Assembly (NCBI RefSeq): GCF_009914755.1
Contig: NC_060930.1
Strand: one strand, 5' to 3'
From: the human T2T-CHM13v2.0 reference genome, Homo sapiens
Length of the DNA: 64,000 nucleotides
Numbering within the stretch: the first letter of the stretch is position 1; every line of letters begins with the position of its first letter. The notes beneath the pieces are model-generated. The model saw only the letters and a list, made by a program, of their open reading frames with translations. It searched no databases and had not been told where the DNA came from. Of this stretch, positions 7,179-36,600 are shown piece by piece. A program made the translations under genes and the position numbers.

Positions 7179-9350
7179 TCATCAAAATCACAATGCCCCA
7201 TTCTGCTGGTTTCTGTGAGGGAGGCTGATTGATCTTGCTGCCTAGTTGGGGACAGTAAGCCGGGCTATACCTGACACTATATTGCATCTGTGTTGCTCTT
7301 CCTGCTGCTGCCTTTGTTCCAGATGTCTCCTGACTTTCTTGTTCTTTCACAAGAATCAAAGCCTGTGATTATTGGTCAAGCAAGAATACAGGGCAGGAGA
7401 CCACCTCACCCATCCAAAGAAATGCATGCAGAAAAGCCATGTTTTCTAATTGTGGGGAGCCACCACCTGACCCTACCCAGGCTCCCTCCTTCCTGTCTTA
7501 TACCATCTGAGCCCCAGGTACCTGTAGAGGGATCTGCTCATAGGACCTGGGGCCTAAGTTTCTGCCCCTCCACCACCAGTGTCTAGTCTCCAACTTCAGT
7601 GGAGAGGGAGAGCTAGGGCACCTAGAGAAAAGCCCCATCGCTGCCTCCTTTCTCAGGGTGAGGTTCTCATGACTGCTCACTGGGAAGGACTGGGATGTGA
7701 GCTGGAATCCCAGTATGAGGAGAAAGTGTGCCCCCATACTCCTTGCTCCTTCTTTTCCTTTCCTTCCCTTCCTGAAGCTCAGCTGTGACCCTCCATTTAC
7801 GTCCATGGGGGGAAGCTCTTTACCTGGGCAGGCCCCCTGTTTCTCAGCCAAGTGTCCCAGTACTGCCAGCCCTGTCTTGAAGTTGACCCCAGAACATCTT
7901 CTCCCATGGTTCAAAGGGCCTGGGCAGCCACTCTTGTTCCAACAGAGCCACCCTTGCATCAGGGTGGGGAGAACAGGGTTCTTGAATGAAGGTTTTATAT
8001 TGTATTTCTTACTGCTTGAAGTTGTACTTGGGGGTGAAGTGGATTAAGACAAGAGTTTATTGTTACTTTCCACTACAACCAGGTGGACTGTACCTGAGAC
8101 AGAAGCGGGATGAGAATAAAAGGGAGGGACTCCCATCTCCCCTAGAGGAGCGATGGCCTCCTGTTACCCTGCAGGCTCCCTAGAGCAGAGCTGTGATTTG
8201 CTGGGAGTGGGGACCATCTTCTTATGCATAATTATGTTTTGCAGAGGGGGTTCTAGAACACTAAGGAATGGCTTCTTCACCACTGGCACACTGGGCAAGG
8301 CTGGGGAGAGCTATGGGGTGTGGTTTCCCTGCTGTGGTTTATTGGTAATTGTACCAAGAATAGTGGAAAGGATGACTCTTGGGTCACAGATGACTGTGGC
8401 AGCAGTGCCATCTTCATGTGGGTGGGGAGGTGACTCCCAGGGAATTGGGACCCTGTGCTTATGTTGTTTATGTCTGAAGTTATATCAAGGGCTCTTGGAT
8501 GCCTTTCAGTTCACATTTGGGACAGTGAGGCTCAATTTCCTGCTGGGCCTGGGGGAAGTAAGCAGCTGGCCCCACCTCCTTAGAAATTTTCTCCAGTCTA
8601 AGCCCTGACTCATAGCTGGTTTTTCCTTTCAAATGATGACCACAGCCCACTCTGGATGCCAAATCTGTCGGTTCTCAGGGATCTAGGAGGGCAAGAGTGG
8701 ATCTGGTCAACCTGGGGAAGACTCATGGGGGACAGGCAGGATTTCCCACTCTCCCAGGCCCTGGATGAACTCTGATATTCAACATGCCCAGTATTACTGA
8801 GGAAAATATTGGTACTCCTTAGCACAAATATCTCACAGAGAATTCTAACCTCAGATAAGGAAGACCAGGCTGGATGGCCTCTGAAATACTTGCTGTGCCA
8901 GTTCAGTGATTCTAGAACCCAATATGCCCAATGTTATCATTAATATGCTGCCATTGATTACAATGTGCTCAGTGATGCATATAATTAATATAATGGAGGC
9001 CGTTAGCACTTCCACTTCTCCAAGTCTGTGTTATGCATTTAATTACTTTAGCACTTCACAGTTTATCAGTATACCATCCCCTGAGCTAGATATTTCTCCA
9101 ATGCCATTTTACAAATTAAGGAATTTTACAAATTAAGGTCATAGAATAAAACCCCACCTTCCTCACTCACGAAGAGACAAGCAGCTTCCCCCTATCTAGG
9201 CTGCTGAAGGACCTTCTTGTTCTTCCCAGGCCACCACCCTATAGCCCACACTGTTTGCCCTCCCCCACAAGCTCACACAACCACATCCCCGAAACTCCAA
9301 AGGAGTTTGCTCCCTCAGGCCTCCTTGGTCCTCAGAAAAAACAGTCATTC

Positions 9351-25337: not shown

Positions 25338-27631
25338 TGGTAGTTTCTAAAAAGTTAAACATACACTTATCATATGATAGAGTCATTCAACTCCTAAATA
25401 TTTATCCAAGGGAATAAAAGCATATGTTCATACAAATGTCCTCCAAGTTTCCTAGCAGCTTTATTTGTATTAGCTAAACATTGGAAACAACAGAAATGTC
25501 ATCATCAGGTGACTAGATAAACAAATTATTGTATATCCATATGATAGAATTCTATTCAACAATAAAAAGAAATTAACACTAAAATTCTTGTTTAAATCTC
25601 AAAACAATTATGCTGAGTGAAATAATTCATAAAAAATTGAGTACATACTGTATGATTCCATTTATATTAAATTCTATGCAGTGCAAACTAACCCACAGTG
25701 ACAAAGCAGGTGAGTGGTTGCTTGTGGGGAACAAGGTTGAGAGCTAGATTACAATGGGACACAAATTTTTTTTTGGTATGTTCATTATCTTGATCATGAT
25801 GATGATTTCATTGGTTTTTATAAATGTCGGAATTCATCAAATTGTACATCTTGAATATATGAAGTTTATTATATGCCAATTATATCTCATTAAAACTGTT
25901 AAGAGAAGATTTTTGCATCAAAAAATATTTTAAAAGATGCCTTTCCAATTGGAACTTTAAAACAATCTATTGTTAAACAATTGAGTGATAATTAAGATAC
26001 AAACAAGAATTAAAGGATTCTGAAAAAAAGATAATTAAACCACTAGATATCCTATCTATAAGATATGTTTAAAACAGTAATCAGAGGACAATATATGGCT
26101 AGAAACATTGTATCTCTAAACAGTGAGGAATGAAACTAACTTAATTCAAAAATATATAATGTTCCCCTAAAAAGTACAAGAAAGAAGATATAACAACTAT
26201 ACATTATATGTACCTAACAACAGAGCCCCAAATATATGAAATAACAGCTGTTAAGTTGGAGGGAGAAACAGACAATTCAACAATAATACTTGGATACCTC
26301 AGTATATCACTTTTAATAATGGCTGCAATAACTAGACAGGAGATGATCAAGGAAATAGAAGGCTTGAACAACACTATAAAATAACTGGACCTAATAGACA
26401 TCTATAAAACACTCAATTGAACAGTATATGTTCTTCTGAAATCCACATGGAACATTGTCCAGTACAGACCATAAGTTTGGCAACAAAAGAAGTCTCAGTA
26501 AGCATAAAAAATAAAATTATATAAAGTATCTTCTTCAATCACAACGGAATAAAATTAGAAATCAATAATGAGAGGAAATTTGGAAAGTCACAAATGTGTA
26601 GAAATCAAACAAATTCTTAACCAATCCAATGGCTCAAATAATAAATCATGAGACACTTGAAAATTCTCCGATATAAATCAAAACAAAACAAAAGCATACC
26701 AAAATGTATGGATACAACAAAAGCAGTATTTAGATGAAAATTTTTCATTGGAAACATCCACATTAAAAAAAATAAATATCTCAAATCAATAACCTAAGTA
26801 TATAATAAACTAGAAAAAAGAAAAAGCTAAATTCAAAGCAAACATAATAAAGGAAATAATAAAGCGTAAAGTGTACATAAATGACATAGAGAAAAGAAAA
26901 ACAATAGAGAAAATGAACAAGCACAAAAATTGGTTATTTAAAAAAAATAAACAAAATTAACAAAATCAAAACTTTAGACTTACCAAGAGAAAAAAGAGGA
27001 CTCAAATTACTAAAATCAGTAATGAAAGAGAGGACATTACATTGACTTTACAGAAATAAATGGGGTTATAAAGAAATCATATGAGCAATTATATACCAAC
27101 AAATTAGATAACCTAAATGAAATAGACAAATTCCTAGGAAGACACGAACTACCAACTGACTTATGAATACATACAAGCATAGAAACATAGCTCAATGGAA
27201 TCAAATTTAGGGTCCAGAAATAAACTCATATACTTATGGTTAATTGATTTTCTCCAAAGGTCTCAAGACCATTCAGTAGAGAAAGAATTCTATTTTCAAC
27301 AAATTGTGCTGGGAGACAGCTGGAAAAGCACATATAAAAGAATCAATTTGGACCTCCACTCACAACATGTACAAAAATTAATTAAAACTCATAAAAGACC
27401 AAACGTTAAGTGCTAAAACTATAACTCTTATTTAAGAAAACAAATCTTCATAATCTTGGATTTGGCAATAGATCCTTAGATAGGATACCAAAAACACAAG
27501 CAACAAAAGGAAAAATAATAAATTGGGCTTCGTCAAAATTGAAACCTTAGTGCATTGAACACTATCAAGTGGAAAAATAACCAACAAACTGAGGGAAATT
27601 ATTTGCTAATCATATATCCTGTGAGAAACTT

Positions 27632-27950
27632 CCTATGAACTAAATACTTCCCCCAAATTCACGAGGCAGAGCCCTTATGAATGGGATTAGCACCCTTATA
27701 AAAGAGGCCTGAGAGAACTTCCTTGTTACTTCCACCACATAACCTAAGTATATACTTTAATAAAGTATATAGGACATACTGCAAGATGGCCATGTATGAA
27801 CCAGGAAGTAGGCCTTCACTAGACACTGAATCTGCTGGCACCTTGATCTTTTAACTTCCCAGTCACCAAAATTGTGAGAAATAAATTTCTGTTGTTTCTA
27901 AGCCATCCAGTCTATGACACTTTGTTACAGCATCACAAATAGACAAAGCC
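27632..27950 (+). mobile_element. MLT1A/MSTD-like MaLR LTR
   Basis: 'gaatgggattagcacccttataaaagagg', 'gaatctgctggcaccttgatctt', 'gtgagaaataaatttctgttg'. Confidence 0.8.
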
Positions 27951-28728
27951 AGGTCTAGGACTGTGAATATATAAAATTTGACAACAAACCAAAATTCAGT
28001 AACAAGCCAAAAAGATACAGAAATCATTTTTTTAAAATTGTCAAAGGACTAGAACAGATATTTCTCTTAAAAGATGTACCAAGAAAATATAACCAATAAA
28101 TACATAAAAGGATATTCAGAATCTTTAGTAATAAGGGAAATGCAAATCAAAACCATAATGAGATAACACTTCACACCTACTAGGATAGCTAGAATTTAAC
28201 AATCACAACAAAAAGAAAACAAGTGTTGACAAGGATGTGGAGAGATCAGAACCCTTATGTATTGCTGGTAGAAACACAAAATGGTTCAGCCACTGTGGGA
28301 AGCATTTTGGCAGTTCCTCAAAAATCTAAATATAGGATTACCACATGACCCCGCAATTCTACTCCTAGGTACATATCCAGCAGAACTGGAAACATGTCCA
28401 AACAAAAACAGGTGTACACAATGTCCACAGCAGAATTATTCCTAACAGTCAAAAAGTAGAAACAATCCAAATGTCCATCAATTGGATACACAATATATGG
28501 TATATTCATGCAGTGGAATATAAACCTTACCAATAATGAAGAACTGGCACAGGCTATGATACTCATGAGCCTTGAAAATATTATGCTAATTGAAAGAAGC
28601 CAAACACAAAAGGTTATCTATTGTATGACTCCGTTTACATGAAATGCCCAGAACGGGCAAATGCATTGAAACAGAAAGCCAATTAGAGGATGAAGGGAGG
28701 GCAGAACGGGGAGTGGCTGCTTAATGAA

Positions 28729-29204
28729 TGCGTTAGTCTGTTCTATCACTGCTATAAAGAAATACTTGAGACTGGGTGATTTATAAAGAAGTTTCTGCTG
28801 CACTCCAGCCTGGGTGACAGAATGAGACCTTGTTTCAAAAACAAACAAACAAAAAAAGGTTTAATTGGCTCACAGTTCCACAGGCTGTACAGAAAGCATA
28901 CATAGCAGTTTCTGCTTCTGGGGAGGCCTCAGGACACTTCCAGTCATGGTAGAAGGCAAAGGGGGAGAAAGCACTTCCTATGGCCAGAGCAGGAGAAAGA
29001 GAGGGAGGAGGGAGGTGCCACACACTTTTAAACAACCAGATATCAGGAGAATTCATTATTGCCATGACAGCATCAAGGAGGATGGTATTAAACCATAAGA
29101 AGTCACCCCTATGATCCAATCACCTCCCACTAGGCCCCACCTCCAACAGTGGAGATTATTATTTGACAAGAGATTTGGGCAGGACACAGATCTAAACCAT
29201 ACCA
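28729..29204 (-). mobile_element. MSTA/MSTB-like MaLR LTR containing a 5'-truncated Alu (~28795-28857, +)
   Basis: 'tgcgttagtc...ggacacagatctaaaccatacca'. An Alu 3' end 'gcactccagcctgggtgacaga' plus A-rich tail interrupts it. Confidence 0.88.
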
Positions 29205-30087
29205 GTGTGTATGGAGCTTCTTTTGAGGGTGATAAAAATATTCTGCAATAGGGTTAGTGATAATGATTGCACAATTTTATGATTGAACTGAAAGCCACTA
29301 AATTGTACACTAAATACTGTTAATTCTATGCTACATTAATTTTATATCAATTTTTTAAAAAGGGATATGGGAGGCTCAAATATAATGGTACATTTGAACT
29401 TTTCAGAACAAGGTCTTTCAAAACACTTGCCCAATAAATATAAATATATGGGCATCCCCCAATTGGCCTTTAAGGCATTCTCTTCCATTGGCCAAGAGCA
29501 TTCTCATCTGCTCAGCAACTTTCTCCCATTGGCCGGACCCTTGATGCTGAGGCTTTGAAGCAGAGCCTGGGTTTTCCAGGCACTGCTGATTAGCCGGGGG
29601 AAGAAAAGTAGGGTGTTGTAGCAAACCCTCCAGTTAGGACTTTGGGTCCCTAGGAGCTGACTGAGTCTGTTCAAGCATTTTCTCTCTAGTGCCAGGCCTT
29701 TGGTTGGTGGGAAAAAGTCATAGGATGGCACTGGGGGGGTCTATTTGCAGTCGTACTCTTAACTCTTGTGAGACCTCAAAACAAGTGCCTTCTGGGTGGT
29801 GCTTTCCACTGGGGTAAAATGAAAAGACTCCAGGATCACAGGCACCCAGGGTTCAAAGGCCTGTTAAGTAGAGAGCAGGAGACAGTACCAGCACAGCCCT
29901 AACTCTGTCGGGCCTGTCCTCTCAGAAGCCAGGCCATGGCCCACCTAAATTCTGGAAGGCCCCACCTCCCTTAGCCCCAACAGGCAGTGCTCATCATCAA
30001 CGACTTTCCTCCAAGCCCCCGCCCTCTGCATACTGCATGGACTCCAGGAGTCCCCTGCCCCCACTCCCACCCAGGAAAGCTGGTCTA

Positions 30088-30240
30088 GGACCAATCAGAG
30101 GCTGTGGAACTTTCTGGAAGGCCCAGGGCTTCTCCCTGGGTGGGGCAGGGCCTCTGATTGGAGGAGGCCTGCCAGAAGGGTGGGGCGATGGGCGTGGCTA
30201 ACGGGATAACTGCCAGAGCAGAAGACAGTTGGCAGTTATT
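30088..30240. promoter_or_regulatory. TDRG1 promoter: two inverted CCAAT (NF-Y) boxes, GC/KLF boxes, four MYB (YAACKG) sites
   Basis: ccaatcagaggc 30091-30102 and its exact reverse complement 30150-30161. gggtggggcg and gggcgtggc at ~30178-30198. taacgg 30199, taactg 30207, cagttg 30226, cagtta 30233. Confidence 0.75.
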
Positions 30241-30830
30241 TCGCAACCTTCATCTGTTCCTGGAAGATACCCGTAGCCTGCCTTCCTTCTTGACAGGCTG
30301 ATTTAGGGGTGCTCCCCAAGAAGATCAGGACTGCTGAAAGAATGAAGAAGAACTTACTTGGCCTAGGATGTGGCTAGAGAACGGAGCGCACTTTCACTTA
30401 CCTGGCAAGGTGGTTTTGGAAGTTTCCACGGAAGCCTTCCCAGGGCCGCTGCTGCCCGTCCTCGCCTAGGTGTGGAGCTTCCCGACCGGCTGGGGAGGGA
30501 ATGTCCTGCGGGAGCCGCCGAGGACCCTCTTTAGCCTCTTCCCTGGCTTGGCTGCAGCTGCAGTCTGGTACTCGCCCATTCTGCTCTTCTTCACCTCCGT
30601 ATTTTCTCTCTCACGGAAGAAGAATTCCATTCTCCCATCCCAGGAAGGAGAGTGCCCTGCGTGCCACGAAAGAGCCCAGGACCCACAGGACAAATACGTC
30701 ACTGGCAGACCTGCCTTCGCCAGCGCCAGCCCATCTCTGAAACCTCCAGCATTTGTGCCCCGGTCCGGCCCCTCCCAGGCCTGACTCTTTCCGTGTGGGT
30801 ATTTTCCTCCTGGGCTCGCTGCCGCCTCGC
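30180..30830. promoter_or_regulatory. Weak CpG island over TDRG1 exon 1
   Basis: Clear local CpG enrichment relative to the depleted flanks. Confidence 0.65.
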
Positions 30831-31207
30831 TCCCATTTCTCCCTTCCCTCCCTATGGTAACTGATGAAGGGTTGGGGCTGGTGGAACCCAGATCTGGGGT
30901 CAGAAGTTCCCCTTGTCAAGTCCCAAGTCTTCCATCTAAGCTGTGTGATCATGGGAAAGACACTTTACCCTTTGTGGGCATGCCCGCTCAACTGGAAAGT
31001 GACACAATCATAATGCCCTAATCCAGAATTCTTGTGAGAATGGGAGTAATTATGTAAATATCTTTGGAAAACAGATGTGCTGCCAATTACATTTTGTGAT
31101 TTTAACTTTGTCTTATTTCTCTGCTGTTTTGTCTTCCTATGTATCAAGTTTCTTCTGATTTTTTTTTTTCTTTTATAGGAACGGTCACTGCGCAGGATCA
31201 AGCTACA

Positions 31208-31510
31208 ATGAAGAGGAGGGAGGCAGTCTGCGCGCACCGCCATTTTCTAGGAACTGGGAAGCCCCCCCACCCCTTAGGAAGATCCATCCCTGTGGAACCT
31301 TGCCCAGGCTTACCAGCCTTTGCTGAGGTTGATCTATTGTCCCTCCTTGTCCCCATCAAAATATCCAGCACTCCACCTTCAGGGAGTAGACTTGACCCTC
31401 AAATAGCAAGTTCAGCCTTCCCAGGTCTAGGTTCCCTGGGAGGTCAAGATTCGTCTGGTTCCTTAGTACAGAGGGCTAGCTGTGAGTTGGAATCCCCCTA
31501 TGAGCTTTAG
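31208..31510 (+). CDS. TDRG1: TDRG1 putative 100-aa protein (MKRREAVCAH...ESPYEL); coding status doubtful
   Basis: ATG at 31208, TAG ending 31510. Matches my recollection of the TDRG1 peptide. No recognisable domain, and several upstream ATGs. Confidence 0.6.
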   Translation: MKRREAVCAHRHFLGTGKPPHPLGRSIPVEPCPGLPAFAEVDLLSLLVPIKISSTPPSGSRLDPQIASSAFPGLGSLGGQDSSGSLVQRASCELESPYEL

Positions 31511-31762
31511 AATCAGTCAAGAGGAATTGGGCCCCTTCCCTTCATCCCTCTTCTTTTCCCTTTTTGTCCCAGAGCTCAGCTCTGACTCAAAAGTTTTTCC
31601 ATTTACCATCAACATGGAAACTTGGCTCCTCACGTAGGTATATTATCCCCCTTTTGTACATGGTCTTGTTGATCCAAACTCCCTTTCTGTGAAAGAGGCC
31701 TGTGGGGCTCAAGAAGCCTGGTCAGCCAGCCAGGCTAGTCCCACATACCTCAGAACCAGTTT

Positions 31763-31768
31763 AATAAA
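31763..31768 (+). terminator. TDRG1 polyadenylation signal
   Basis: AATAAA followed by CA and a T/GT-rich downstream element, with an upstream TGTA at ~31656. Confidence 0.85.
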
Positions 31769-33619
31769 GGCTCTATGTCATTCTTTTTTGCTTGGGCTGA
31801 TTGGTGTGCTGATTCAGAAGACCTTGATATTTTATTCTTTCCCCCAAACCAGCTCAATTGGTGTTTGTGCTAGAGGGAGATGGACCATGGGGAGGGCTGT
31901 TATAAGGGATATCCTTGGCCCTCCCACTTCCCCCTTTGAAGGATGCCCTTGTTATCTTAGGCAGGGACCTGATACCGGTTGGTTCAGTAGATATCTGGCA
32001 GTTTACTCTGAGCATTTACCTTATATTAGGGCAAGAACTAAAGGAACAAATACATCCACCTCAATGTCAGGTCAAGTGGGAGGATGTGGATGGGAGTAAA
32101 GAGTGATTAGTATTGAGGTCGTGGAATTTTATTGGTTACTATTTTTATAACTTTGGTCTTCCAGTCCTTGAATGAAGGTAAACGGAGACTTATTAGGGAA
32201 CAAATTACTAGTGGCAGGGTGGTGGTGTCCTGGTGTCCTGCTTAGAATGTGAAGAGAGTGCCCCATCATTGGCCTATGCTGTGCATCTGGGAGGTGGTAG
32301 GCCACAGTCCTGAACTGCACAACTGGTAGTGAAATTCAGAGCAGAATGCAACATTTATTTAATGGGGCCTCACAGTTGGCCAGTGTCCCTGTGGCCTTTC
32401 CCCTTCTTCCTTCCACTCTGTGTCATGGAGACCCGACTTGATTTGGCAAGAGAACAACGTACACCTAAGATTTCCCGAATATTTCCCAGCAAGGACCCTG
32501 GCTGGCTATGTTTCTACTTCAGTGGTGACCACAGCAGATACTGGCAGTTTTCTGTTATGGCTCTGGGGTCTTTTAAGGAGCAGGAACGTGGAATATGTAC
32601 AAACCTGGAGCCACAGTCAAGTACTAAGCTCCTTGAAGCACAAGGCATGAGAATATCATGTTTTCTTTTCCTTAGAGGATTTATGAATTAAAACTAAGGA
32701 ATAATTTGTAATCAGAATAACACCACCTGGCAGGGATGTTGATGAGCTGAGGAAGGCTTATTTGGAGATTTCTGGTATTTTCCAGCTCTGAGACTCCAGA
32801 CCTAATATCCGTGTAATGGCCATTAATGTCTTGTAATTTATAACAGTTTTATCAGTGATCCATTACATTAATCATCATGAGTTGGTGACTTATCAAGTCC
32901 TACAGGTTATTTGTTATTTGTATAACTATATAGAGCTATTTAATTTACAAACACAATACTCTTTTGAGGTAGATACCAGAACCATTTTACATTTGAGGAT
33001 ATTGAAGCTAGGAAAAAGACTCAGCTCTTGAAGGAATGGACATGGGGTGCCCTTGCCTTCCTTGGGGAGAGAGCCACCTAATCTGTGCAGCTGTAGTTAG
33101 GGCCTGCCACCTTATTCCTCCTCTCCATCCAGCCCCTACATTTTGGAAACAAAAAGGCAGCAGTGATCTGGGAATTATTTAATGCTTAGTTTGACAGGAC
33201 AAATTTTAAGGACCTTAAGAGCAACCTTTTATTTCTTACCATATGAGGCACTGGGACAGGCACAGAGAAGTCAATATTATTTGCCCAGTGCATTTCTTCA
33301 TGGCTTCTGCTTTTTAATCTTAGGCTCACTTTTTTAACCTCATTGCTCACATGTTATGATTCCTTCCAGAAAGTTCACTGAAATTCTAATGTCCCTTGCT
33401 GTTCCTTAGGTAACTTAGGAGTAACTTTCCAGCTCTTCCCCTAACTAGTTGTGTGACGTGCAGCAGGCTGCTTAACTTCTGTGTGTCTCAGTTTTCTCAA
33501 CTGTAAAATGAATGATCCAACCCCTGTGTCAGAAGGATGGGTGAGGCTCATGAGGAATAACACATAAGAAATATGGGATGCTTACCACAGTGTTTGGTAA
33601 ATAACATGAGTTTCCTCTT

Positions 33620-36600
33620 CCCTCTTTGAACAGTCCTTTGTATTCTGCTGAGAGCTTTCCTGTTCATGCTGCCTCACAACCAAAAGGGGAAAGAATCCTG
33701 AGTCCTGTGCTCATGATTTCTCCCTTTGCTAGCTGGTTCAAGGCCAATCCAGATACCATGGTATTTTCTGAAAGAGTCCCACCCTTCTGTGCAAAAGCCT
33801 TCCTCCCAGGGAGACTTGATATGACTGATTAACAATCCAATTAACACTCTGGAACAATCTAGAAGGGCTGTGGCTCATTACCCTCAGCAATTTTCCACCC
33901 ATTTAGTCTCCAAGCCATTCCCTGGAAGAGACAAGTGGATCTGATGAGTGGGGCTGTGCCATGAGACCTCCAGTATTTATGGAGAAGCCAGTCCTTTCTT
34001 CCTTCGCCAGGCCTCAAGATTTCCCAATGTGCCTCTATTCTTACATGGCGGATGGGATTCTTTGCCTTCATACAGGAAGGAACTGGAACCTCAAGGCAGA
34101 CAGGACAAATACAAATCTTGAAAATGACCATGACTCCTAGTTGGTCCCTACTTGCCTCCTGGTTTCACTAAGTAGAGGGTCACTCCATGTAGAGCCCTAT
34201 CCAGCACACTGCTCCTTCCCCCACCTTTAGATGTGGACAGTGGGTGGACTGGGCCCATAGCCTGGACCTGGACAGCTGTGTCCTCCCAACCAGACTCTTC
34301 TGATTCTGCTGCGCCTCACTCTTTCCTACTTATCCTTGCCTAGATCCCTCTTACTCCATCTTTCCTGCTCAGGTCACAATGGACAATAATCTCTGACCCC
34401 TGCCCCAGCTAGACTGGCACTGGAGAGCTGAGAGAGCCTCCTGTCCATGGAGAATTCTGGCAGAGCTGCTATCTTCAGCCCCGTCTCAACTCTCCAGGGT
34501 CCTGTGCCCTTTGTCTACCTCTCCCAGGCCTGACTCTCCTCCCACTTGCATGGACATTGTCTTTCCTAGCTCTGGGCTGCCTTCTCAGCCTCATGTTTTG
34601 CCCTTTTTCCTGCTGTGGGAGCCAGCCATCACTGTAATGCATGAGTGCGGGGATGTGGTGTGAAGGGAACTCCAGTTCTGGGGTCAGAAGATTTAAAGTT
34701 TGAGACCTACTTCTGTCCCATAAGCACTATAAAAACTAAGCCAAATAAACAACTTTGATCCTCAGTTTGGAAACTTTTGTAATGTGAAGAAATTAGACTT
34801 TTGATAAAGAATGGAAGAAATGGTCATCCATGCTAAAGAAATGTTTGGAATGTTGAGATGCTATAGAATCTTTCTGACAGTGCTGCTGACTTTGTATACC
34901 TCTACATATAAATGTCTCCAGTTTTGTTTCTTTTCCACCATTCTGCAGACAAAGCTGAATGCAGGCAGGGAAGGAACCCTCACTGTTGAGCCCTGGAATC
35001 AGGCACTCTTGTCTGAGCCCCTTCATCTTTGGTTTGGGGTAGAAAGCACAGGTGGCACCCTTTCTCTAGTTTTCTCACTTCTGGCACAAACTCTCATTTA
35101 CTGTAACCTAAGAAAGGATGGAAGACCTTGAGCCTCAAGAAAAAAGCCCCAAGAAAATTCCATGCCTCTGCTTCCCTCACAAATCAAAGCTGAGCTAATC
35201 CAGAGCAGTTTGCATGATTCCTTAGAAGAAGGAACCTCACCAGGACTCTTAAAAGCAGGGAGACCAAGGAAGAATTGGGCTTCTGCACTTAATCACTGTT
35301 GAGGTCCTCCCTGCCTGCTCCCAGACCTCTGGAGTGACCCACAGTCTTCTCTATTTACCTTAAAAACAGAATCCAACCTCTTCATGTAGGTGAGTCACCC
35401 CATCTGCAGTTATATGTCCTGGCGCACCCCAGCTCTCCCCAAACAAACTGTGAAGCATCAGCCCTACCCAAGGAACCTGTCCAGCCATGCACACTTCAAC
35501 CAACCCTCTCTGACCTTAGGATGAAACCGTTTCTCTAACATTTTTTTTCACTCACATTGGGACCAGTGTGTTGATTCAGAAGACCAAATTGGGAACTAAT
35601 TTTAATCTCCCTACCTCAAGCAAATGGATGGTCTTCGGACTAGAGGGGGCCCAGGTATTAAAGGGTGTCAGAGAGGGCTGGTCAATGGGCTACCATCCCA
35701 CCACCCCTTGGGAAGAGCTCACCTCCCTTCTCAAGTGGAGAGCCTCTGGCCCACTCTCAGCCCTCTGATCAGAGCCAGGCTCTCACTGAGTGATTTTTCT
35801 GGCACCTGGCAGTCTTCCCATCCTAGAAGGGGAACAGTGGGAGGTTTTTGGTGGCAGCATTTGTGTCATTCCAGAATACTGGATGTTAGATTTTGGCTGT
35901 TGGGAAAATCCTGGAACAAAGATGAAAGGTGAGAAGGATTAGGGAACCAATGAGTGAGGGGCAGGATGGCCATCCTCAGCCCAGCAGTGAAGTCTACAAT
36001 TTTCCAGGTGCTTCCATCTACTATTGGGGCTGTTGTGTATGTCAGAACATTCAGGGCATCAGGGAGTACAGAGGTTACCATGTGCTCTCTGCCACTTCCC
36101 TGCCTCCTTTCTTCTCTCAAAATCATAGAGACCAGTGCTGATTTGGCAGGGAATATCGAACCTCTTGAGATTTTTCCAGCTGGAACCCTGGCTCTGTACC
36201 TAGTTTTTTAACACTATTTTGACCATAGCAGTCTTTGGGAGCTGCTTGATGTCTGGGCTCTGGATTTCCCATGAAGTCAAGAATGATGGATTCACAAGGG
36301 CCCACCGGGAATATGGAGCCATGGTCTGATTAGAGCACAGAGAGCTACTTCCTGCCTTGGGTAAATCCTGAAATTCATCATGCATGATTTTCCTTTTAAT
36401 AAGATTAAGGAGAGCTTGTATAGATATTGAACAGGGGATCCTGATAGCCATTGAGGGAGGCTGGAGTAGATGACCTCTGATAGCTTTTGCCAGCTTTGAG
36501 AGTCTATGAACTTAACATATGTAATATTATCATTAATATGCTATAATTTATGTTACTTTAAATGATGCATATCATTAATAATAATGACTGTTATTACGCT

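What the first reader, a model, noticed from the sequence alone, without database searches (positions are those of the whole stretch)
30088..30240. Doubly palindromic NF-Y + MYB promoter module: candidate A-MYB-driven bidirectional meiotic (pachytene piRNA-type) promoter
Seen: an exact 12-bp inverted pair of CCAAT boxes (30091-30102 / 30150-30161), GC boxes, then four YAACKG sites within 40 bp, two forward and two reverse. These include an exact 10-bp inverted repeat, ataactgcca (30206-30215) / tggcagttat (30230-30239). No TATA box is evident. Established: A-MYB (MYBL1) binds such motifs and drives pachytene piRNA precursor and meiotic gene transcription, often from divergent promoters; NF-Y sites are common in bidirectional promoters. 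Inference: TDRG1 and a leftward transcript may be piRNA precursors or A-MYB targets rather than a protein gene.
Basis: partly seen in the sequence, partly recalled or inferred. Interest (0 to 1): 0.75.

Follow-up and report, generated by a model that had tools for sequence, protein, structure and literature searches.

The report
Known TDRG1 pachytene piRNA gene promoter
The motif cluster is real and is the core promoter of TDRG1, which is already catalogued as a testis pachytene piRNA-producing gene whose mouse counterpart is bound by A-MYB and NF-Y, so the reading is largely right but not new, and nothing supports a leftward partner transcript.

Summary
Four MYB sites in 40 bp is far beyond chance: 0 of 200 shuffles reach four. 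The two exact palindromes are not rare in themselves and mostly reflect pairs of consensus sites in opposite orientation.

The module lies at -143 to +4 of the TDRG1 start site, window 30234. The core inference is already in print:
- Yu 2021 lists pi-TDRG1 as a human 'Pachytene' piRNA gene with this start site and these exons, at 8,997.6 ppm piRNAs, syntenic to mouse 17-qC-935.1.
- Yang 2013 mapped 12 abundant sense piRNAs inside TDRG1.
- The mouse orthologue has A-MYB signal at its start site.
- It has NFYA peaks about 60 bp from that site in 3 of 3 pachytene/diplotene replicates.
- Jian 2026 calls TDRG1 a conserved piRNA precursor.

The bidirectional part is unsupported. There is no minus-strand partner in the human or mouse piRNA gene rows I saw, and all 12 tabulated piRNAs are plus-strand. 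Human A-MYB occupancy could not be checked, because Ozata 2020 is not held. Verdict: already known, low interest.

The parts
30091..30102 (+). Distal NF-Y box: forward CCAAT at -143..-139. With its flanks (30089-30098) it matches RRCCAATSRS in full. Left arm of the 12-bp inverted repeat.
   Evidence: (I3); consensus quoted from PMC13083884
30150..30161 (-). Proximal NF-Y box: inverted CCAAT (ATTGG at -77..-73). Matches CCAATSR but not the two 5' purines of the consensus. Right arm of the 12-bp inverted repeat.
30190..30197 (+). GGGCGTGG, an Sp/KLF-type GC/GT box at -44..-37. The factor assignment is recalled, not tested.
   Evidence: 2 such sites in the 64 kb
30199..30212 (+). Two forward MYB sites, TAACGG (-35..-30) and TAACTG (-27..-22).
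   Evidence: YAAC(G/T)G consensus quoted
30226..30238 (-). Two reverse MYB sites, CAGTTG (-8..-3) and CAGTTA (-1..+4). The second overlaps the start site. GGCAGT at 30231-30236 fits the initiator pattern BBCABW with A+1 at 30234.
   Evidence: the initiator consensus is recalled
30202..30243 (.). Inverted repeat around the MYB sites. The exact 10-bp arms are 30206-30215 / 30230-30239. It extends to 14 positions with 12 Watson-Crick pairs.
   Evidence: (I6)
30234..30794 (+). Start site and 561-nt long first exon of isoform pi-TDRG1.1 (also a RefSeq alternative exon). The spliced form uses 30234-30469 and 30620-30794.
   Evidence: hub annotation; BED12 rows with blocks 561,604 and 236,175,604; GT donors and AG acceptors
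30467..30492 (+). Most abundant reported TDRG1 piRNA: 87,298 of the 118,256 reads in Table S10, starting with U. It spans the 30469|30470 splice donor, so it derives from the unspliced long-first-exon isoform.
31179..31790 (+). Last exon. It holds the 100-aa ORF (31208-31510), which has no Pfam match, and an AATAAA signal at 31763, 27 nt before the annotated 3' end.

Best explanation
This is the compact, TATA-less, low-to-intermediate-CpG core promoter of pi-TDRG1, a short pachytene piRNA precursor gene transcribed in one direction.

Proposed mechanism:
1. NF-Y occupies the two CCAAT boxes at -143 and -77.
2. A Sp/KLF-type box sits at -44.
3. A-MYB binds the four YAAC(G/T)G sites packed between -35 and +4. 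The last site doubles as an initiator-like element.
4. Together these fire plus-strand transcription from 30234 when spermatocytes reach zygotene/pachytene.
5. The capped, polyadenylated 1.0-1.2 kb RNA, chiefly its unspliced long-first-exon isoform, is cut into sense, mostly 1U piRNAs.

Shown in print:
- piRNA output and 'Pachytene' class, in human.
- Meiotic onset, in human and mouse.
- A-MYB and NFYA occupancy and Mybl1 dependence, for the mouse orthologue only.

Inferred:
- That the human sites mapped here are the ones bound.
- The division of labour between NF-Y and A-MYB.
- The initiator role of the last MYB site.

The 'double palindrome' is best read as two pairs of near-consensus sites in opposite orientation, not as a separate device.
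For: Placement of the motifs:
- The MYB cluster is reached by 0 of 200 shuffles.
- It is the only MYB+CCAAT co-cluster in the window.
- No TATA, CHR or CRE is present, and CpG observed/expected is 0.20-0.34.

Identity of the gene (supplements seen):
- Yu 2021 (PMC7782496) Supplementary Data 4b gives pi-TDRG1 at hg19 chr6:40346075-40347624 +, 'Pachytene', with blocks 236,175,604 and 561,604. These equal the RefSeq exons apart from a 604 versus 612 nt last exon.
- One offset, 40,315,842, fits both the start site and the mapped piRNA.
- Its Reviewer's Table 1a gives 40.4 RPKM and 8,997.6 ppm piRNAs in human, syntenic to mouse 17-qC-935.1.

Small RNAs:
- Yang 2013 (PMC3691314) Table S10 lists 12 of 12 piRNAs on the plus strand. 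9 of 12 start with T, which is 102,835 of 118,256 reads.
- I mapped the top one to 30467-30492.

Occupancy at the mouse orthologue:
- Yu 2023 (PMC9808571) Table S1B gives A-MYB CUT&RUN of 5.50 and 2.75 RPM against 0 without antibody, with a peak summit 0 bp from the start site in trial 1. ChIP is 6.98 against input 0.11.
- NFYA Dataset EV3 (PMC13083884) gives start-site-to-peak distances of 60, 60 and 58 bp in pachytene/diplotene cells.
- Jian 2026 (PMC13191651; abstract and passages) reports A-MYB bound near 1700008K24Rik, lower expression in Mybl1 mutants, and TDRG1-derived piRNAs after overexpression.

Timing:
- TDRG1 is a zygotene / early-pachytene marker in human data.

Copy number:
- The 201-bp module is single-copy in the human assembly.
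Against: - No human A-MYB or NF-Y occupancy was seen for this promoter. Ozata 2020, which holds the human A-MYB ChIP, is not in the library. Yu 2023 states that about half of human piRNA gene promoters are not A-MYB-bound.
- In mouse, the A-MYB CUT&RUN peak was called at the start site in only 1 of 2 trials; trial 2's nearest peak is 24,321 bp away.
- NFYA is near the mouse start site in only 1 of 3 spermatogonia and 1 of 3 leptotene/zygotene replicates. The gene is labelled 'Non-poised', so that paper's headline mechanism of pre-opening in spermatogonia does not apply.
- OVOL-family factors recognise the same CCGTTA/CNGTTA core, so the motif alone does not name the binder.
- I could not align the mouse promoter, so conservation of the individual sites is untested.
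- One 24-26 nt species makes up 74% of the tabulated reads. That is not the broad, diverse profile of large clusters.
Confidence: 0.85

Rival explanations
1. One reading: a truly bidirectional pachytene piRNA promoter. A second, unannotated leftward precursor would start near 30211 or further upstream and yield minus-strand piRNAs.
For: - The left arm of the MYB palindrome recreates the same initiator-like GGCAGT on the minus strand, with A at 30211, 23 bp from the plus-strand start.
- Many pachytene piRNA genes are divergent pairs: 15 pairs, and 26 of 49 BTBD18-dependent clusters.
- There is no early poly(A) signal on the minus strand until 28860.
Against: - The rows next to pi-TDRG1 in the human table as shown are 6-p21-438 (39.08 Mb) and pi-USP49 (41.76 Mb), and neither is a partner.
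- No partner appears in the mouse rows shown, and there is no RefSeq minus-strand gene within 22 kb.
- 12 of 12 abundant piRNAs are plus-strand, although that table covers only the gene.
- In a described divergent pair, the A-MYB peak sits midway in a 475-bp promoter. Here the sites sit on the plus-strand start itself.
Confidence: 0.08
2. The TAACNG sites are used mainly or additionally by OVOL1/OVOL2. These would compete with A-MYB at sites that overlap the start site and shut the gene off in late pachytene.
For: - OVOL2 and A-MYB recognise the same CCGTTA core, about 36% of mouse OVOL2 sites are A-MYB-occupied in testis, and competition is cited.
- 3 of the 4 sites fit CNGTTA, and one is a perfect CCGTTA.
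- Human clusters are described as TDRG1+ in zygotene, TDRG1+ OVOL2+ in early pachytene, and OVOL2+ without TDRG1 listed in late pachytene.
Against: [quoted passage not shown]
- There are no OVOL data for this locus.
- The marker lists are qualitative.
Confidence: 0.1
3. A G2/M-type promoter, in which A-MYB is brought in indirectly by MuvB at a CHR element alongside CCAAT boxes.
For: CCAAT boxes are enriched among genes that depend on A-MYB/B-MYB-MuvB. Two CCAAT boxes are present here.
Against: There is no CHR (TTYGAA) in 29950-30300. Four direct MYB sites are present instead. Expression is testis- and meiosis-specific.
Confidence: 0.02
4. The palindromes act as DNA structures (cruciforms), or mark a transposon-derived or inverted-duplication module, rather than as factor sites.
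For: Single-strand DNA folds give z = -4.4 and -4.6, with 0 of 200 shuffles folding as well in each case. The MYB palindrome extends beyond the core motif, with 12 of 14 positions paired.
Against: - Loops of 14 and 47 nt are unfavourable for extrusion (recalled).
- Only the right arm is transcribed, so no RNA hairpin can form.
- The 201-bp module is single-copy in the genome and is not in the masked-repeat list.
- Most of each arm is consensus motif.
Confidence: 0.03

Closest known systems
pi-TDRG1 (human) / 17-qC-935.1 = 1700008K24Rik (mouse) pachytene piRNA gene
   Same: It is this locus. The start site, exon blocks and strand are identical. Synteny and piRNA output are tabulated. By eye, a mouse 17-qC-935.1 piRNA printed matches window 31603-31633 at 27 of 31 positions.
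   Different: None of the papers I read describes the promoter motif by motif: 'promoter' occurs 0 times in Jian 2026, and a full-text search for 'pi-TDRG1' returns 0 papers. The mouse gene is classed 'Murine-specific' by output level.
Divergent pachytene piRNA gene pairs (for example human 6-p21-16923 / 6-p21-43244, mouse 17-qA3.3-27363.1 / 26735.1)
   Same: Pachytene class, Pol II transcripts, and A-MYB-type control.
   Different: Those have two annotated divergent genes with first exons of 25-58 kb. This one is a single 1.5-kb gene with a 561-nt first exon and no partner.
NFYA-bound poised meiotic promoters (EMBO J 2026, PMC13083884)
   Same: A CCAAT / RRCCAATSRS motif near the start site of a meiosis-I gene, with NFYA at the mouse orthologue's start site.
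   Different: The mouse orthologue is labelled 'Non-poised'. NFYA appears consistently only in pachytene/diplotene cells (3 of 3 replicates), not in spermatogonia (1 of 3).
OVOL2-bound CCGTTA promoters of ovarian piRNA clusters (PMC11789646)
   Same: The same core motif, at the 5' end of a piRNA source.
   Different: Testis-specific locus. OVOL2 was reported absent from testis-specific clusters.
B-MYB/A-MYB-MuvB CHR + CCAAT cell-cycle promoters (PMC11229319)
   Same: CCAAT boxes combined with a MYB-family activator.
   Different: No CHR here, and direct MYB sites instead.

Membership tests
Mammalian pachytene piRNA gene | Source of abundant, sense-strand, 1U-biased small RNAs in adult testis | tested here: met
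   Published table: 12 of 12 on the plus strand, 9 of 12 starting with U, 118,256 reads. The top species maps to 30467-30492. 8,997.6 ppm. Caveats: lengths are 24-27 nt, and one species dominates.
Mammalian pachytene piRNA gene | Catalogued as the pachytene class, with onset in meiotic prophase | tested here: met
   Labelled 'Pachytene' in Supplementary Data 4b. Human zygotene / early-pachytene marker. Mouse RNA values are 1.8-3.4 in the first three columns and 570-906 in the next three; I did not see those column heads.
Mammalian pachytene piRNA gene | Canonical Pol II transcript with splice sites and a poly(A) signal | tested here: met
   GT donors, AG acceptors, and AATAAA at 31763, 27 nt before the 3' end.
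Mammalian pachytene piRNA gene | A-MYB occupancy of the promoter | not testable with these tools
   Human ChIP data (Ozata 2020) are not held. Four consensus sites lie at -35..+4. The mouse orthologue is occupied: peak called in 1 of 2 CUT&RUN trials, signal present in both, ChIP 6.98 against 0.11.
Bidirectional (divergent) pachytene piRNA promoter | A second, divergent piRNA-producing or other gene starting within about 1 kb on the other strand | tested here: not met
   No partner in the human rows shown, the mouse rows shown or RefSeq. LINC00951 is 22 kb away and its start site is motif-free.
Bidirectional (divergent) pachytene piRNA promoter | Small RNAs diverging on both strands from the promoter | tested here: inconclusive
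   Only a within-gene table was available, and all 12 entries are plus-strand. No upstream or minus-strand data were seen.
NF-Y-dependent TATA-less promoter | A CCAAT box with consensus flanks within about 60-150 bp upstream of the start site, and no TATA | tested here: met
   GACCAATCAG at -145..-136 matches RRCCAATSRS in full. The inverted CCAATCA at -79..-73 matches CCAATSR. No TATA. NFYA sits at the mouse start site in 3 of 3 pachytene/diplotene replicates.
MuvB/CHR late cell-cycle promoter | A CHR element (TTYGAA) close to the start site | tested here: not met
   None in 29950-30300.

The most novel reading that the evidence does not exclude
The four start-site-overlapping TAACNG sites form a timing switch. 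A-MYB binding, with the last site serving as the initiator, turns pi-TDRG1 on in zygotene / early pachytene. OVOL1/2, which read the same core, then displace A-MYB and occlude the start site to end the burst in late pachytene. A variant of this reading: the mirror-image initiator on the minus strand (A at 30211) gives a short, unannotated leftward transcript.
Probability: 0.1. Interest if true: 0.5.

Novelty: already known. Interest (0 to 1): 0.18.

Why it matters
The locus shows that reading sequence alone can correctly pick out an A-MYB/NF-Y meiotic piRNA promoter. The biology itself is catalogued: pi-TDRG1 and its mouse orthologue have been in piRNA gene lists for years, and the two were tied to the piRNA pathway again in 2026.

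What remains useful is small:
- A base-level map of an unusually compact pachytene piRNA promoter, with all sites within 150 bp and MYB sites sitting on the start site. That would make a convenient minimal reporter for dissecting how NF-Y, A-MYB and OVOL share the work.
- The observation that the dominant piRNA spans a splice donor, which links piRNA output to the unspliced isoform.

Tried and rejected
- Ozata 2020 (PMC6961462), which holds the human A-MYB ChIP and the original human piRNA gene list, is not held. Human occupancy therefore stays open.
- A full-text search for 'pi-TDRG1' found 0 papers. The name occurs only in supplements.
- Macaque: two 'Non-coding piRNA cluster' rows (pi_rheMac8_IG_96 and IG_97) sit beside LRFN2 in Yu 2023 Table S3, far from TCFL5 peaks. 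In Yu 2021 the same names lie on rheMac8 chr7. The row order cannot be read as genomic position, so I dropped this as evidence.
- Rfam scan of 27000-34000: 0 families.
- Pfam scan of the 100-aa ORF: 0 families.
- TCFL5 consensus WANSWCGW: one site at 30000-30007 and none nearer. Mouse TCFL5 signal is weak, at 1.02 and 0.30 RPM.
- Comparator attempt: I fetched 40 kb around where the shared start of pi-SAYSD1 / 6-p21-438 should lie. I found a cluster of 3 MYB and 2 CCAAT sites. Without a liftover I could not fix the start site, so it is not used as evidence.
- No mouse or macaque genome is available, so the promoter sites could not be aligned across species.
Unseen column heads limit the reading of files 3, 4 and 6 and of the later ChIP columns.

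Full report
**Observation**

The sequence at 30088-30240 is as described.
- The repeat finder returns the exact 12-bp inverted pair at 30091-30102 / 30150-30161 and the exact 10-bp inverted pair at 30206-30215 / 30230-30239 (I3 and I6).
- The DNA search returns YAACKG at 30199(+), 30207(+), 30226(-) and 30233(-).
- No TATAWAW or TATAA occurs in 29950-30300.
- The only GC-type box between the CCAAT pair and the MYB sites is a non-canonical GGGCGTGG at 30190-30197. The nearest canonical GGGCGG is at 30019-30024.

**Chance**

- YAACKG is under-represented in the window: 62 sites against a shuffle mean of 96.
- Even so, four fall within 40 bp. 0 of 200 dinucleotide shuffles reach four, and 12 of 200 reach three.
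- Scanning 200-bp windows, this is the only place in the 64 kb with at least two MYB sites and at least two CCAAT.
- The palindromes on their own are not remarkable. One exact inverted repeat of 12 bp or more with a loop of 60 or less occurs in the window, against a shuffle mean of 0.33, and 28% of shuffles have one.
- Seven exact 10-bp inverted repeats with a loop of 30 or less occur, against 2.45 in shuffles.
- Eight of the twelve CCAAT-arm bases fall inside the NF-Y consensus RRCCAATSRS (quoted). The core of the other arm is the MYB consensus YAAC(G/T)G (quoted).
- I therefore read the 'double palindrome' as two pairs of good sites in opposite orientation.
- The DNA fold extends the MYB palindrome to 12 of 14 Watson-Crick pairs. 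This leaves a small chance of an origin by inverted duplication.

**Place**

The annotated TDRG1 start is 30234. Relative to it:
- the CCAAT boxes are at -143..-139 and -77..-73;
- GGGCGTGG is at -44..-37;
- the MYB sites are at -35, -27, -8 and -1.

The last MYB site overlaps GGCAGT, which fits the initiator pattern BBCABW (consensus recalled) with A+1 at 30234. CpG observed/expected is 0.20 for -300..+100 and 0.34 for +/-500. That is low-to-intermediate by the classes defined in Yu 2021. The 201-bp module matches only itself in the 3.1-Gb assembly, so it is not a repeat family.

**What it is**

- Yu et al. 2021 (PMC7782496, supplements seen) list 'pi-TDRG1' at hg19 chr6:40346075-40347624 +, type 'Pachytene', with blocks 561,604 and 236,175,604. 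These are the RefSeq exons 30234-30794, 30234-30469 and 30620-30794, with a last exon 8 nt shorter than 31179-31790.
- A single offset of 40,315,842 links hg19 to the window for both the start site and the piRNA I mapped.
- Their Reviewer's Table 1a pairs it with mouse 17-qC-935.1 and gives 40.4 RPKM and 8,997.6 ppm piRNAs in human.
- Yang et al. 2013 (PMC3691314; passages and Table S10 seen) reported 12 piRNAs of more than 1,000 reads mapping uniquely in TDRG1.
- All 12 are plus-strand and lie at window 30325-31533 by the offset. Nine of the 12 begin with T, which is 102,835 of 118,256 reads.
- The top species, 87,298 reads over three length variants, maps to 30467-30492. It crosses the 30469|30470 splice donor, so it must come from the unspliced 561-nt first exon.
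- Jian et al. 2026 (PMC13191651; abstract and passages seen) call mouse 1700008K24Rik and human TDRG1 conserved piRNA precursors.

**Regulators**

I saw no human occupancy data, because Ozata 2020 is not held. Data for the mouse orthologue are as follows.
- Yu 2023 Table S1B gives A-MYB CUT&RUN of 5.50 and 2.75 RPM against 0 without antibody.
- The nearest A-MYB summit is 0 bp from the start site in trial 1 but 24,321 bp away in trial 2.
- TCFL5 is 1.02 and 0.30 RPM.
- A-MYB ChIP is 6.98 against input 0.11.
- piRNAs are 1,604 and 1,792 rpm in wild type against 1,342 and 1,089 in Tcfl5 mutants.
- Jian 2026 reports reduced expression in Mybl1 mutants.
- In the NFYA study (PMC13083884, Dataset EV3, header seen), the distance from start site to nearest NFYA summit is:

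| Cell stage | Replicate 1 | Replicate 2 | Replicate 3 |
|---|---|---|---|
| Spermatogonia | 195,722 bp | 88 bp | 195,742 bp |
| Leptotene/zygotene | 703,856 bp | 703,804 bp | 66 bp |
| Pachytene/diplotene | 60 bp | 60 bp | 58 bp |

- The gene is labelled 'Non-poised'. NF-Y is therefore at the orthologous start site when the gene is on, but the paper's model of pre-opening in spermatogonia does not fit this gene.
- In human single-cell work, TDRG1 is used as a zygotene / early-pachytene marker.

**Bidirectionality**

This part is not supported.
- The rows flanking pi-TDRG1 in the human table as shown are 6-p21-438 at 39.08 Mb and pi-USP49 at 41.76 Mb.
- The mouse rows shown list no partner.
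- The nearest minus-strand RefSeq gene, LINC00951, starts 22 kb away, and its start site has no MYB or CCAAT site within 400 bp.
- All tabulated piRNAs are plus-strand, though that table covers only the gene.
- The MYB sites sit on the plus-strand start itself, not midway between two starts as in the described divergent example.
- A mirror initiator-like element exists on the minus strand, with A at 30211, so a short upstream antisense RNA cannot be excluded.

**Rivals**

- OVOL factors read the same CCGTTA/CNGTTA core, and three of the four sites fit it. They could share or contest the sites.
- A MuvB/CHR-type promoter is unlikely, because no CHR is present.
- Structural or transposon readings have little support.

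**Coding potential**

A 100-aa ORF lies in exon 3 at 31208-31510. It has no Pfam match. It has been reported as a micropeptide that is not conserved in mouse.

**Verdict**

The A-MYB/NF-Y pachytene piRNA reading is correct in substance but already known. The bidirectional element is unsupported. Interest is low.

Noticed in passing
window 30467-30492: The dominant TDRG1 piRNA (74% of the reads in Table S10) crosses the exon-1 splice donor at 30469|30470. It can therefore only come from the unspliced long-first-exon isoform. This fits the published 'long first exon' idea even for this very short gene.
   Followed up: partly
window 31603-31633: By eye, a mouse 17-qC-935.1 piRNA printed in Yu 2023 Table S2 matches this stretch of human exon 3 at 27 of 31 positions. 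Pachytene piRNA sequences are said to be poorly conserved, so sequence-level conservation inside one is worth noting.
   Followed up: partly
L004 754-888 (G000 C6:38,943,753-38,943,887): Three YAACKG sites and two CCAAT within about 135 bp, in AT-rich sequence. They lie 0.75-0.9 kb from where the shared start of the divergent pair pi-SAYSD1 / 6-p21-438 would fall if the hg19-to-T2T offset seen at TDRG1 held there. The start site is not verified. Only one other such cluster occurs in the 40 kb scanned.
   Followed up: partly
window 29950-29962 / 30112-30124, and 30066-30075 / 30135-30144: An exact 13-bp direct repeat (TTCTGGAAGGCCC), and a further exact 10-bp inverted pair (CCCACCCAGG / CCTGGGTGGG) interleaved with the CCAAT palindrome but centred elsewhere. 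No explanation was sought.
   Followed up: no
window 7516-8316: The LINC00951 start site (7916, minus strand) has no MYB, CCAAT, GC-box or CRE half-site within 400 bp. It does not share the TDRG1 promoter grammar.
   Followed up: partly
supplements of PMC9808571 and PMC7782496: The macaque cluster names pi_rheMac8_IG_95, IG_96 and IG_97 appear beside chr6p21-type genes in the 2023 table, but lie on rheMac8 chr6 and chr7 in the 2021 BED file. Either the numbering or the row order differs between the two papers.
   Followed up: partly
whole window: YAACKG is depleted overall: 62 sites against a mean of 96 in dinucleotide shuffles, and all 100 shuffles have at least 62.
   Followed up: no
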